DNA from: Escherichia coli | GTDB lineage: Bacteria; Pseudomonadota; Gammaproteobacteria; Enterobacterales; Enterobacteriaceae | Direction: 5' to 3' (one strand) | Assembly (NCBI RefSeq): GCF_965641715.1 | Contig: NZ_OZ282453.1 | DNA length: 64,000 nt | Made by a program: the position numbers | In this document: piece after piece, positions 1-3,000 of the stretch | Numbering within the stretch: the first letter of the stretch is position 1 | How the letters are laid out: each line of letters starts with the position of its first letter

Positions 1-3000
1 ATGGGTACAGGCCGGAGCATGGAAAGAAGTTGGATATTCTGAGGTTGATTTGAGCACAGCAGAAACGTATCCCTGCCCTGTACCCTGTGGGGAAATGACT
101 TATATCTTGCGGGTGATAGGTGATTCAATGATTGATGAGTACCGCCCGGGAGACATGATTTTTGTCGATCCTGAAGTACCTGCCTGCCACGGTGACGACG
201 TTATTGCATTGATGCACGATACAGGTGAAACCACCTTCAAAAGGTTGATAGAAGATGGGACACAGCGTTATCTCAAAGCGTTAAACCCAAACTGGCCTGA
301 GCCTTACATTAAGATCAACGGTAATTGCTCTATAATTGGAACTGTGATTTTCTCAGGAAAACCAAGAAGATACAAAATCAAAGCCTAATCAATGTTTATG
401 AACCTGCTTCGGCAGGTTTTTTTATACTTGACAATGTACCTATGAGATACATAATGTACCCAAGAGAAACAACAAACAGGCAGGACGCCCACGAAGTAGC
501 CGCCTGGGGCATATGAAGTCCAGGATGATTCGTTAGCAACAAAAAAGCGCCCTACAGGACGCTTAGCTCTTTAACAATCTGGATATCCACAACAGTAGTA
601 ATCTACAGATTGCCGTTAAGTTTTCTGGACAACTCCTCAATGGATGGAGGCGATACGTAATCCGGATTTTTATTCATCAGAAACTTATTTTCACAGTGGA
701 GGCACCTGCTTTTATGAAAAAGCTCATCTTCGCTAACCGGGAATGGTTGAAGTATCGATACTATCTTTTGTCCAAAACATTTTGGGCAAAGATGCATGGT
801 TATGCTGCCACCGTTCACGATTACCTCCTTCGAGTATACAAAAGTACCCGACTCAAGTTGGTTAAGGATATAGCCTTCCGTCTGAGCCTCAAAGTTTTCG
901 AATTCTGCAATTTTAGCTTTGAGAGAAGCATTTATTTCTTGATAAGAGCCCACCAGTTCAACGAGAGACACGCATTCGCGCTGAATAGACGCAAGCTTTG
1001 AGTTCAGCTCACCAATAGCCGCATTTACTTCAGCTTGAGTTTTTGCCTCGTTCATTAGTTTTGCAATCTGGGCTGTTTCACGAATAGCCGTCATTGCTGC
1101 CGTTAATTCAGCGATCACATTGAATACTCTTATTGTTGTTGGGGATATCCAGATTAACCGAATCCTTGTTGTTGGGGAATAACCAGGTCCACCTCGCCTG
1201 ATGTGGCTAAAAGCAGGCACATAACAGCTAAGTATTTTCAACCAGAGAGAATCCTTAGCGTTGTGGTGAATGCGGCTCAGCGCACGCGGGTTAAGGTTGA
1301 GGCTGACAGTCGACCTTCTGTGGATACCCACCCGCCTGGTGTGCAACCTTCGCCAGGCACCGGGAGGCACCCGGCACCACAACTTTATGCTGTGTGTAGT
1401 CCTGGCGGTACCAGTTTGTACCCTTGCTTCCGGCTGGTACCGTCCTTTTTTGCAAAACAGAGAAGAGCATCACCGGACGACGGGCTCATAACCCAATCCA
1501 TCCGGGCGGCTGCCACCGCAGGTGTTCTTCTCTGTTTTGTGGAGAAACCAACCGACCTTGCAGGGTCGATATGATGAGGAGCAGCAAAATGGCTAGCGAA
1601 CGCAGTACTGATGTGCAGGCATTTATCGGGGAGCTGGACGGCGGCGTATTTGAAACCAAAATCGGCGCAGTTCTCAGTGAGGTCGCTTCCGGTGTGATGA
1701 ACACGAAAACCAAAGGGAAGGTCTCACTCAATCTGGAAATCGAACCGTTTGATGAGAACCGTGTGAAAATCAAACACAAACTCTCATATGTTCGCCCAAC
1801 TAACCGCGGGAAAATTTCCGAAGAAGACACCACCGAAACGCCGATGTATGTCAATCGCGGTGGTCGCCTGACTATTCTGCAGGAAGACCAGGGACAATTA
1901 CTGACTCTTGCCGGTGAACCTGACGGAAAACTCCGCGCAGCAGGTCGTTAATATCGTTCGTAATAAACTGATTATTTATCTCATCACTGAATATCTTTAT
2001 ATAGTGAGGACTTATTATGTCTCAGAACTTAGACGCAACCGCAATTAATCAAATCCATGCCCTTATTTCTGCTCAGGGTGTTAATGAAATTATCAGTAAG
2101 ATTGGTGCCGATGCTGTGGCATTGCCTGAGAATTTCCGCATTCATGATCTGGAAAAATTTAATTTAAATCGCTTCCGTTTCCGTGGTGCACTTTCCACTG
2201 CCAGCATCGATGATTTTACCCGTTATTCTAAAGATCTTGCAGATGAAGGCACCCGCTGCTTTATCGATGCCGATAATATGCGTGCCGTCAGTGTGCTTAA
2301 CCTGGGTACTATTGATGAGCCAGGTCACGCAGATAACACTGCCACTCTCAAACTGAAAAAGACAGCACCGTTCTCTGCTCTGTTGTCTGTTAACGGCGAG
2401 CGTAACTCCCAGAAGTCACTGGCAGAATGGATCGAAGACTGGGCCGACTACCTTGTGGGCTTTGACGCTAATGGTGACGCCATTCAAGCAACAAAAGCGG
2501 CTGCGGCAGTCCGTAAAATCACGATTGAAGCAAACCAGACCGCTGATTTTGAAGATAATGACTTCAGCGGCAAACGCTCCCTGATGGAGTCTGTCGAAGC
2601 GAAGACCAAAGACATTATGCCAGTGGCATTTGAATTTAAATGCGTTCCGTTTGAAGGTCTGAAAGAACGTCCGTTTAAATTACGCCTCAGCATTATCACT
2701 GGCGATCGTCCTGTACTGGTTCTGCGCATTATTCAGCTGGAAGCGGTGCAGGAAGAAATGGCTAACGAATTTCGTGATCTGCTTGTTGAGAAATTCAAAG
2801 ACAGCAAAGTCGAAACCTTTATTGGTACTTTCACCGCCTGATTTCATTACTGCAAATGCCCCTGCGGGGGCATTTATGGAAACGTAATTAACTCAATAAT
2901 CACCGGATGGTGAGGGCTTCCTTTTACCAGAATTCAGCGCGGTGCAGTGCATATACGTGGAGAACAAAATGTCATTTATTAAAACTTTTTCCGGGAAGCA

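What the first reader, a model, noticed from the sequence alone, without database searches (positions are those of the whole stretch)
1200..1588. Structured GC-rich non-coding leader with three hairpins and a terminator upstream of the prophage early operon
About 390 bp upstream of the yfdP-like gene are GC-rich with no convincing ORF (the six-frame ORFs here are Pro/Arg/Gly-rich). The region contains successive perfect hairpins (GCCTGG...CCAGGC, CCGGG...CCCGG, GGTACCAG...CTGGTACC) and a T-run at 1442-1451. It could be an sRNA, or a cis-acting antitermination element like the put RNAs of HK022-type phages, which replace N-dependent antitermination.
Basis: inference. Interest (0 to 1): 0.45.

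Follow-up and report, generated by a model that had tools for sequence, protein, structure and literature searches.

The report
Pseudoknotted prophage small RNA with terminator
The GC-rich stretch upstream of yfdP is a roughly 193-base structured small RNA of a known prophage family (STnc100/PasD, in the slot of E. coli K1 sRNA-17), and it ends in a terminator that closes off the phage's early-left genes, so it is real but mostly already known and is not an HK022 put-type antiterminator.

Summary
Window 1259-1451 (+) folds into a closing helix P1, hairpins P2, P4 and P5, and a pseudoknot, followed by a conserved linker and an intrinsic terminator with a U-run at 1446-1451.

It is a sub-threshold relative of Rfam STnc100 (40.3 bits against a cut-off of 47, E 1.7e-6). 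It sits in the same place, with the same ends, as the RACE-mapped 193-nt sRNA-17 of E. coli K1.

Covariation supports P1, P4, P5 and the pseudoknot. I did not find the pseudoknot in the Rfam consensus or in the one family paper I searched.

The family has two positional classes:
- Type A (canonical STnc100/PasD) has its own promoter and lies between Q and the lysis genes.
- Type B (this element) has no adjacent promoter. It lies in the pL leader, between cI and yfdP-...-xis-int.

The put reading is not supported. There is no similarity to HK022 or HK639 put, and relatives accumulate as discrete terminated RNAs in uninduced lysogens.

Most likely this is an Hfq-type small RNA whose terminator also insulates the early-left operon.

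A different invariant element right after pL (478-528) is the better candidate for any RNA-based early antitermination.

Novelty: a new variant of a known kind.

The parts
428..455 (+). pL promoter (TTGACA-16-CATAAT) with the OL operator ATGTACCTATGAGATACAT at 434-452. It is the likely source of transcription into the element during lytic growth.
   Evidence: The promoter scan gives 11 of 12 matches. The operator motif ATGTACC-N7-TACAT occurs only at OR and at this promoter in SfV and PhiR49_1. It lies directly after the cI terminator at 400-419.
1259..1451 (+). Predicted 193-nt RNA: a type B STnc100/PasD-like core plus linker plus terminator. It is the positional equivalent of sRNA-17.
   Evidence: Rfam STnc100 hit at 1230-1453, 40.3 bits. 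Model R1 hit at 1257-1387, 78.9 bits. The 5' and 3' ends are inferred from the sRNA-17 primers and the mEp460 sequence.
1260..1268 (+). P1 5' strand GUUGUGGUG. It pairs with CACCACAAC at 1375-1383. The joiner AAU follows at 1269-1271.
   Evidence: MFE fold. The pairs outside the GGUG/CACC core covary. Fels-1 has AGUG/CACU at this helix.
1272..1287 (+). P2 hairpin GCGGCUCAGCGCACGC. This is the type B version; type A has CCCCCUGUGCGGAGGGG.
   Evidence: The variant CCUUUC/GAAAGG in HK639 and cluster c6 is compensatory.
1293..1299 (+). Pseudoknot 5' strand AAGGUUG. It pairs with CAACCUU at 1344-1350 in the P4 loop.
   Evidence: Alignment-free test: each sequence's own P4 loop gives -10.3 kcal/mol against -6.8 for other sequences' loops, with 0 of 10000 permutations as good. 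phiES15 has AAGGCUG/CAGCCUU.
1334..1358 (+). P4 hairpin GCCUGGUG-UGCAACCUU-CGCCAGGC. Its loop carries the pseudoknot 3' strand.
   Evidence: Seven stem positions are 97-100% paired with 3-6 pair types across 35 representatives.
1360..1374 (+). P5 hairpin CCGGG-AGGCA-CCCGG. It is followed directly by the P1 3' strand at 1375-1383.
   Evidence: It is nearly invariant across the family. In the LLS type the stem covaries to GGUGG-AGGCA-CCACC while the loop is kept.
1388..1401 (+). Conserved single-stranded linker UGCUGUGUGUAGUC between the core and the terminator. It is a candidate seed or Hfq-contact region.
   Evidence: It is conserved in ST64B, phiES15, LLS, L156 and L235 although the interiors of those RNAs differ. 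No complementary site was found in the phage.
1404..1451 (+). Intrinsic terminator: an 11-bp stem GGCGGUACCAG/CUGGUACCGUC, a 19-nt loop, and U6 at 1446-1451.
   Evidence: The same terminator ends sRNA-17. By a crude rule, a hairpin plus U-run follows 24 of 33 type B copies and 42 of 69 type A copies.
1452..1540 (+). A separate structured domain, the yfdP 5' UTR. A 20-bp helix closes a three-way junction. A hairpin follows at 1553-1568, then the SD GAGGAG at 1576-1581 and the ATG at 1589.
   Evidence: MFE -59.8 kcal/mol, z = -4.9. The helix covaries, for example AGGUGGCG/CGCCACCU in L235. The domain is absent where kil replaces yfdP, as in phiES15.

Best explanation
Window 1259-1451 encodes a roughly 193-nt structured small RNA of the prophage STnc100/PasD family, sitting in the slot that sRNA-17 occupies in mEp460-type prophages. 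Its core is a compact pseudoknotted domain (P1, P2, a P4 hairpin whose loop pairs back to the segment after P2, and the near-invariant P5 hairpin). A conserved single-stranded linker and an intrinsic terminator hairpin with a U-tail follow. A linker, hairpin and U-tail make up the usual Hfq-binding 3' module. Canonical family members each carry their own promoter between Q and the lysis genes. This copy has no adjacent promoter and is embedded in the leader of the repressor-controlled early-left operon (pL at 428-455). Transcripts that enter it stop at 1446-1451. This releases the stable RNA, which most likely acts in trans on mRNAs through Hfq as PasD does. The same stop keeps yfdP-yfdQ-yfdR-...-xis-int silent unless RNA polymerase is made termination-resistant or reads through. 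Shown here: the fold, the family relationship, the position and the terminator. Taken from papers on relatives: the discrete RNA, Hfq dependence and silence of yfdP. Inferred: the trans targets, the origin of the 5' end (processing or an unrecognised promoter) and how read-through is achieved.
For: Family relationship:
- The Rfam STnc100 match covers the full model at E 1.7e-6.
- My own model scores this element at 78.9 bits, alongside type A copies at 72-100 bits.

Structure:
- P4 covaries at all 7 positions.
- The pseudoknot is supported by 0 of 10000 permutations.
- P5 and P1 carry compensatory variants.

Locus identity with sRNA-17:
- The 5' sequence CGUUGUGGUGAAUGCG, the P1 3' strand and the terminator are the same as in sRNA-17, and the predicted length of 193 nt is equal.
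- sRNA-17 is itself hit by the model at E 5e-5.

Expression of relatives:
- sRNA-17 was mapped by RACE and Northern blot, and yfdP gives about 0.5 reads in the wild-type lysogen.
- PasD gives a discrete band on Northern blots and its stability depends on Hfq.

Context:
- For type B, cI lies upstream in 21 of 34 loci and yfdP/Q/R downstream in 31 of 37.
- For type A, Q lies upstream in 38 of 69 loci, and downstream 25 of 63 have a lysozyme gene and 18 a holin gene.
- A positioned promoter is present in 50 of 65 type A upstream contexts and in 0 of 19 type B contexts.

Not coding:
- There are no Pfam families over the region.
- The cores of the window and ST64B differ in length by 1 nt.
Against: The Rfam score is below the curated cut-off (40.3 against 47). 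No expression data exist for this exact variant. If pL is its only promoter, the RNA would not be made in a repressed lysogen, unlike PasD and sRNA-17. I could not find a convincing promoter between 1119 and 1258. A pseudoknotted five-helix core is far more elaborate than a base-pairing sRNA needs. That hints at a protein, polymerase or small-molecule partner that I have not identified. In this slot the interior of the P1-closed domain is swapped between phages (type B, LLS type, cdtI type, sRNA-17 type, a minimal L156 type), so the frame may matter more than the core. The rise in yfdP after sRNA-17 replacement may be a polar effect of the resistance cassette.
Confidence: 0.6

Rival explanations
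1. Autonomous cis-acting processive antiterminator, working like HK022 put or Bacillus EAR. The folded nascent RNA would bind the elongating polymerase and carry it through the terminator at 1404-1451 and through later terminators in the early-left operon.
For: The phage has no N gene. The element lies in the pL leader directly ahead of a terminator. Both positional classes of the family sit at the entrance to long phage operons. A pseudoknotted core of about 125 nt is comparable in complexity to EAR (from my own knowledge). N-less lambdoid phages are acknowledged in the literature to need some unknown early mechanism.
Against: There is no sequence or structural similarity to put. Type A copies have constitutive-looking promoters directly upstream of lysis genes. 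Autonomous read-through there should therefore be lethal. Their RNAs instead accumulate as discrete terminated species in uninduced lysogens. sRNA-17 terminates, and yfdP is silent. HK639 has a proven put system and also carries a type A copy after Q. The core is exchangeable in this slot.
Confidence: 0.07
2. Riboswitch-like or protein-controlled attenuator. The pseudoknotted domain would be a sensor whose ligand or protein partner decides whether the adjacent terminator forms, gating early-left expression and, in type A, late-leader expression.
For: The core is a multi-helix junction with a pseudoknot and near-invariant junction and loop nucleotides (GGUGAAU, AGGCA), while the helices covary freely. 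It is followed within 20-70 nt by a terminator.
Against: I saw no conserved alternative pairing between the core and the terminator. The terminator arms vary freely while the core's 3' strand is fixed. The CGCCAGG/CCUGGCG complementarity in the window is not kept in ST64B or phiES15. Type A copies occur in tandem as free-standing units, with three in Fels-1. There was no match to any riboswitch family at E <= 1.
Confidence: 0.1
3. Mainly a terminator module. The hairpin and U-run would be the functional tL-type terminator of the early-left leader. The structured RNA upstream would be a recombination relic of an sRNA gene with no role of its own here.
For: The frame (P1 ends, linker, terminator) is conserved while the interior is swapped or reduced to about 45 nt in L156. 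There is no adjacent promoter. Mosaic breakpoints fall at 1403.
Against: The type B core keeps every helix and the pseudoknot through compensatory changes across E. coli, Salmonella and Cronobacter phages at about 76% identity. That indicates selection on the fold.
Confidence: 0.15
4. A decayed protein-coding gene, as RefSeq annotates it (a frameshifted hypothetical protein at 1263-1574).
For: PGAP pseudogene call. ORFs of 123 and 73 aa overlap the region.
Against: There is no Pfam family. The ORF products are Pro/Arg/Gly-rich. Substitutions among homologues are compensatory in helices. A 1-nt indel separates the window and ST64B cores. The covariance models match on the RNA level.
Confidence: 0.02

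Closest known systems
sRNA-17 of E. coli K1 RS218 / phage mEp460 (Sun et al. 2020, PMC7719688)
   Same: It occupies the same slot, between the repressor/pL and yfdP. It has the same 5' sequence (CGUUGUGGUGAAUGCG), the same P1 3' strand (CACCACAAC) and the same terminator (GGCGGUACCAG...CUGGUACCG + U-run). The length is the same, 193 nt mapped against 193 nt predicted.
   Different: The interior is different. sRNA-17 lacks the CCGGGAGGCACCCGG hairpin, having CCGG-AGAUCAGCA-CCGG instead. It scores only 23 bits with my model. Its linker also differs (AGCCACUGCUUU). The authors found no Rfam homologue and did not link it to STnc100.
STnc100 (Rfam RF02076) and PasD1/PasD2 of EPEC
   Same: The core architecture and conserved nucleotides are shared (GGUGAAU, the P2 hairpin, P4, A-CCGGGAGGCACCCGG-CACC), as is the terminator at the 3' end. 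These RNAs are also carried on lambdoid prophages.
   Different: The canonical copies have a sigma-70 promoter whose -10 hexamer ends 8 nt before GGUG, and they lie between Q and the lysis genes. This copy has no such promoter, lies in the pL leader, has a different P2 sequence (GCGGC...), and falls below the Rfam gathering score.
HK022 putL/putR and the HK639 putL-like RNA
   Same: They are non-coding RNAs in the early operon leader of an N-less lambdoid phage, upstream of terminators.
   Different: put is about 70 nt with two stem-loops and starts at or near the transcription start. The sequences are unrelated. put suppresses termination, whereas relatives of this RNA terminate.
StxS and lambda 6S RNA (short promoter-proximal terminated transcripts of the late operon); comparison from my own knowledge
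   Same: The logic is the same: a terminator at the head of a phage operon yields a short stable RNA while the operon is off. In the case of StxS that RNA is a trans-acting Hfq sRNA.
   Different: Those RNAs start at pR' and are unrelated in sequence. I did not test them here.

Membership tests
STnc100 (Rfam RF02076) | Score at or above the curated gathering cut-off (47 bits) against the family covariance model | tested here: not met
   40.3 bits with E 1.7e-6, covering model positions 1-206. SfV scores 39.5, phiES15 40.6 and ST64B 35.1.
STnc100 (Rfam RF02076) | Shared core fold: closing helix GGUG/CACC, AAU joiner, P2 hairpin, P4 hairpin, and the CCGGG-AGGCA-CCCGG hairpin stacked on P1 | tested here: met
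   My model, built from type A and type B together, scores the window at 78.9 bits.
STnc100 (Rfam RF02076) | Free-standing gene with its own promoter, lying between Q and the lysis genes | tested here: not met
   0 of 19 type B upstream contexts have a positioned promoter, against 50 of 65 for type A. The neighbours are cI and yfdP, not Q and holin.
PasD (EPEC Hfq-dependent sRNA) | Discrete transcript whose stability depends on Hfq, with RIL-seq targets | not testable with these tools
   This is known only for PasD1/2 (PMC8550237). Here only the 3' hairpin plus U6 is seen.
sRNA-17 (E. coli K1 / mEp460) | Location between the prophage repressor/pL and yfdP, with the 5' end at CGUUGUGGUG and the 3' end at the GGCGGUACCAG terminator | tested here: met
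   Alignment A6, the primers and the mEp460 sequence.
sRNA-17 (E. coli K1 / mEp460) | Sequence identity across the 193-nt RNA. The authors counted 60 genomes with the full sequence and called the rest 'degenerative'. | tested here: not met
   Megablast and blastn align mEp460 only from window 1403 onward. The interior differs.
put antiterminator RNA (HK022/HK639) | Sequence homology to putL/putR (GAACGGCGCG...UAAACCAUGCGUCGG...UCAGGAUGAACGGCAAU) | tested here: not met
   for the sequences. There is no model hit in HK022, and the only hit in HK639 is in the late region.
put antiterminator RNA (HK022/HK639) | About 70 nt with two stem-loops, immediately downstream of pL or about 270 nt downstream of pR | tested here: not met
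   The core is about 125 nt with five helices and a pseudoknot. It lies about 800 nt downstream of pL.
put antiterminator RNA (HK022/HK639) | Suppresses downstream terminators in cis and is blocked by beta-prime zinc-binding-domain mutations | not testable with these tools
   Indirect evidence argues against it: relatives terminate at their own terminator.

The most novel reading that the evidence does not exclude
The pseudoknotted core shared by STnc100, PasD, sRNA-17 and this element is not just a scaffold for a base-pairing sRNA. It would be a dedicated binding domain for RNA polymerase, a phage or host protein, or a small molecule. That partner would conditionally control the adjoining terminator at the entrance to the two long lambdoid operons (early-left and late). 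This would make it a third class of RNA-based elongation control in phages, after put and EAR.
Probability: 0.1. Interest if true: 0.8.

Novelty: new variant of a known kind. Interest (0 to 1): 0.35.

Why it matters
It ties together three RNAs that were described separately (STnc100 in Salmonella, PasD in EPEC, sRNA-17 in E. coli K1) as one widespread prophage RNA family. It adds a pseudoknot that I did not find in the Rfam consensus or in the one family paper I searched. It also shows two fixed genomic positions with different transcriptional logic.

For annotation, it corrects a recurrent RefSeq pseudogene call. A match to window 1100-1700 occurs in 3086 of 5426 complete E. coli genomes, and 1156 of them hold at least 80% of that stretch.

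For phage biology, it places a strong terminator ahead of the early-left genes of phages that have no N gene. That sharpens the open question of how these phages achieve early-left expression.

Tried and rejected
- **put homology.** I fetched HK022 and HK639, read putL, putR and the annotated putL-like RNA, then aligned and folded them against window 456-570 and against the element. Only a short shared GGAUGA turned up, so I rejected this.
- **Tool-based pair counts.** MAFFT alignments (A2, A4, A5) put the P4 5' strand out of register wherever loop lengths differ. RNAalifold therefore recovered only P1, P2 and P5. I replaced them with register-anchored and alignment-free counts in Python.
- **Second copy.** I looked for a second copy in the same phage, as putR is to putL. 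There is none in PhiR49_1 or in the window.
- **Target of the linker.** I searched the phage and the window for a complementary site. Nothing exceeded chance.
- **Promoter next to the RNA.** I found none convincing.
- **K-12 CPS-53.** It lacks the core.
- **Literature.** King et al. 2011 on HK639 is not held in the library. The RS218 genome is not in the collection. Searches for the conserved sequences as text found nothing.
- **14-mer linker scan.** A scan of viral contigs with the linker returned mostly chance hits. 25 of 117 were true homologues.
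Full report
**What is there**

The window opens inside a cI-type repressor gene. ORF 50-388 carries a Peptidase_S24 domain (E 8.6e-24), and the gene ends in a terminator at 400-419. A near-consensus promoter follows at once (TTGACA-16-CATAAT, 428-455).

An inverted repeat, ATGTACCTATGAGATACAT, overlaps that promoter. In SfV and in the inducible phage PhiR49_1, which share this immunity region, the motif ATGTACC-N7-TACAT occurs only at OR and at this promoter. I therefore read it as pL/OL.

Downstream on the + strand lie yfdP (1589), yfdQ, yfdR and further genes. 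In the related phages SfV and PhiR49_1 this operon continues through xis and int. This is the early-left operon, and no N gene is annotated in any related phage.

Between pL and the finding lies a reverse-strand accessory gene at 603-1118.

**The observation**

The three hairpins and the T-run are real. GC content is 0.55-0.58, against 0.38-0.46 in the flanks. The overlapping ORFs have no Pfam family.

RefSeq annotates a 'frameshifted hypothetical protein' at 1263-1574. I regard this as an artefact.

**Identity**

The only Rfam match in window 1-4000 at E <= 1 is STnc100. It covers the full model at 1230-1453, with 40.3 bits against a gathering score of 47 and E 1.7e-6. A 2026 preprint reports that STnc100 and the EPEC sRNAs PasD1/PasD2 share a structure and a probable common origin.

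I scanned viral contigs for the core 20-mer and obtained 120 loci falling into 39 sequence clusters. A covariance model built from the cluster representatives gives these scores:
- the window at 78.9 bits;
- SfV, ST64B and phiES15 at 78-85 bits;
- Klebsiella, HK639 and Fels-1 copies at 72-100 bits.

**Structure**

The fold has these parts:
- P1, 1260-1268 paired with 1375-1383.
- An AAU joiner, then P2 at 1272-1287.
- A variable region.
- P4, 1334-1358.
- One unpaired A, then P5 at 1360-1374, stacked against the P1 3' strand.

P4 is paired in 97-100% of 35 representatives at seven positions, with 3-6 pair types per position.

The segment just after P2 pairs with the P4 loop. The pairs seen are:
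- AAGGUUG/CAACCUU in the window;
- AAGGCUG/CAGCCUU in phiES15;
- CCAGUC/GACUGG, AUCAGC/GCUGGU, GAGCUG/CAGCUC and others elsewhere.

An alignment-free test supports this pseudoknot. Each sequence's own P4 loop gives a mean of -10.3 kcal/mol, against -6.8 for other sequences' loops, and 0 of 10000 permutations do as well.

P5 is nearly invariant. In the LLS-type relatives, however, it becomes GGUGG-AGGCA-CCACC with the loop kept. One Fels-1 copy changes P1 to AGUG/CACU.

The pseudoknot is absent from the Rfam consensus line. It is not mentioned in the preprint.

**Two positional classes**

| Feature | Type A (GGUGAAUCCCCC...) | Type B (GGUGAAUGCGGC...; the window) |
|---|---|---|
| Promoter | 50 of 65 distinct upstream contexts have a sigma-70 match of at least 8 of 12. 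In 47 of those 50 the -10 hexamer ends exactly 8 nt before GGUG. | None in 0 of 19 contexts. |
| Upstream neighbour | Q in 38 of 69 loci | cI in 21 of 34 loci |
| Downstream neighbour | Of 63 loci, 25 have a lysozyme gene and 18 a holin gene | yfdP/Q/R in 31 of 37 loci |
| Copy number | Sometimes tandem: three in Fels-1, one in HK639 | One per phage |

No locus mixes the two contexts. PhiR49_1 and the window each hold a single copy.

**The sRNA-17 link**

Sun et al. (2020) mapped a 193-nt RNA, sRNA-17, in E. coli K1 RS218 by 5' and 3' RACE and Northern blot. Their primers place it in phage mEp460 at L258 1354-1547:
- It starts at CGUUGUGGUGAAUGCG.
- It ends at the terminator GGCGGUACCAG...CUGGUACCGCUCUUUU.

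The window has the same start, the same P1 3' strand and the same terminator. The equivalent RNA is 1259-1451, which is also 193 nt. Only the interior differs.

My model still detects sRNA-17 at E 5e-5, with a P5-like CCGG-AGAUCAGCA-CCGG.

In the wild-type lysogen yfdP gave about 0.5 reads. After sRNA-17 was replaced by a resistance cassette it gave 47 reads. The simplest reading is a polar effect of the cassette. Either way, transcription normally stops before yfdP.

**Mechanism**

I commit to an sRNA whose terminator doubles as the barrier in front of the early-left operon.

The 3' module (linker, hairpin, U6) is the usual Hfq-binding arrangement. PasD stability depends on Hfq. The linker UGCUGUGUGUAGUC is conserved even where the interior is swapped, which fits a seed or a protein contact. 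I found no target for it in the phage.

Two things remain open. I do not know how the 5' end arises, and I do not know whether the RNA is made in a repressed lysogen.

**Why not put**

HK022 putL/putR and the annotated HK639 putL-like RNA resemble each other closely but do not resemble this element. The fold, the size and the distance from pL all differ.

The strongest argument is functional. Type A copies with promoters sit directly upstream of lysis genes, and yet they yield discrete terminated RNAs in uninduced cells. The RNA therefore does not drive read-through of its own terminator.

**The rest of the finding's range**

Window 1452-1540 is a separate, very stable three-way junction (z = -4.9). 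Its long helix covaries. It travels with yfdP, not with the RNA: phiES15 has kil in place of yfdP and lacks this domain.

**Outside the range, but relevant**

An invariant 25-mer at 478-502, followed by a covarying hairpin at 503-524, lies about 20-95 nt after the pL start site. It is found in phages of Escherichia, Salmonella, Klebsiella, Yersinia, Citrobacter and Pectobacterium with different immunity regions. These include phages that lack the type B RNA. It is the better candidate for an early-left regulatory or antitermination RNA. I did not test it further.

**Verdict**

The feature is real, its structure is well supported, and it belongs to a known kind. It is a new positional and sequence variant.

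Noticed in passing
window 478-528 (+): A pL-proximal conserved element. An invariant 25-mer AGGCAGGACGCCCACGAAGUAGCCG is followed by a 5-bp hairpin that covaries (CCUGG/CCAGG, CCGGU/ACCGG, UCCGG/CCGGA, CUACC/GGUAG), with the loop GGCAUAYGAANN, and then AUGA. It is present once per phage, in 53 of the fetched loci, and also in mEp237, ZF40 and SPN3UB, which lack the type B RNA. It has no Rfam match at E <= 1. It is a candidate early-left antitermination or regulatory RNA of N-less lambdoid phages.
   Followed up: partly
window 1189-1218 (+): Conserved block CCACCUCGCCUGAUGUGGCUAAAAGCAGGC with two overlapping small hairpins. It is shared with SfV and phiES15. In phage LLS it lies about 10 nt after the pL start, at L132 2142-2178.
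   Followed up: partly
window 1452-1588 (+): The yfdP 5' UTR forms a three-way junction closed by a 20-bp helix (z = -4.9), followed by a hairpin at 1553-1568 just before the SD. The helix covaries across phages, and the domain is absent where kil replaces yfdP.
   Followed up: partly
window 603-1118 (-), terminator 545-564 (-): A reverse-oriented accessory gene (171 aa, coiled-coil-like N-terminal half, CxxC...CxxC C-terminal half, no Pfam family above cut-off) is inserted between pL and the RNA, so pL transcription runs antisense to it. Related phages carry different reverse-strand genes at this spot.
   Followed up: no
window 1133-1145 and 1166-1178: The direct repeat TTGTTGTTGGGGA occurs twice in the divergent region between the accessory gene and the RNA, each time followed by ...CCAG. 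It may be a regulator site or part of the accessory gene's promoter (read).
   Followed up: no
L002 2215-2403, L003 1409-1597, L005 1414-1602 (- strand of the loci): SfV, ST64B and cdtI carry adjacent isrK and C4 antisense RNA matches above the Rfam cut-offs in their early-right operon. This resembles a P1/P7-type c4/ant immunity module inside lambdoid phages.
   Followed up: no
L005 about 3873-3992; L132 2318-2459; L156; L235: In the same slot, other phages keep the P1 ends, the linker and the terminator but swap the interior: the cdtI type, the LLS type with a covaried P5, a minimal interior of about 45 nt in L156, and an sRNA-17-like interior in L235.
   Followed up: partly
L128 4599-4729, 4994-5106, 6136-6274; L130 44807-44927: Fels-1 has three tandem type A copies between Q and the holin gene. 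HK639, the phage with a proven put system, has one copy between two annotated terminators downstream of Q.
   Followed up: partly
window 1263-1574: RefSeq/PGAP annotates this RNA region as a frameshifted hypothetical-protein pseudogene in the strain I checked. The other listed strains show only 'hypothetical protein' features over the match. A match to window 1100-1700 is found in 3086 of 5426 complete E. coli genomes.
   Followed up: partly
window 2843-2955 and 25643-25729: The covariance model gives weak hits here (E 0.04-0.07), probably noise. The rest of the 64-kb window beyond about 4 kb was not examined.
   Followed up: no
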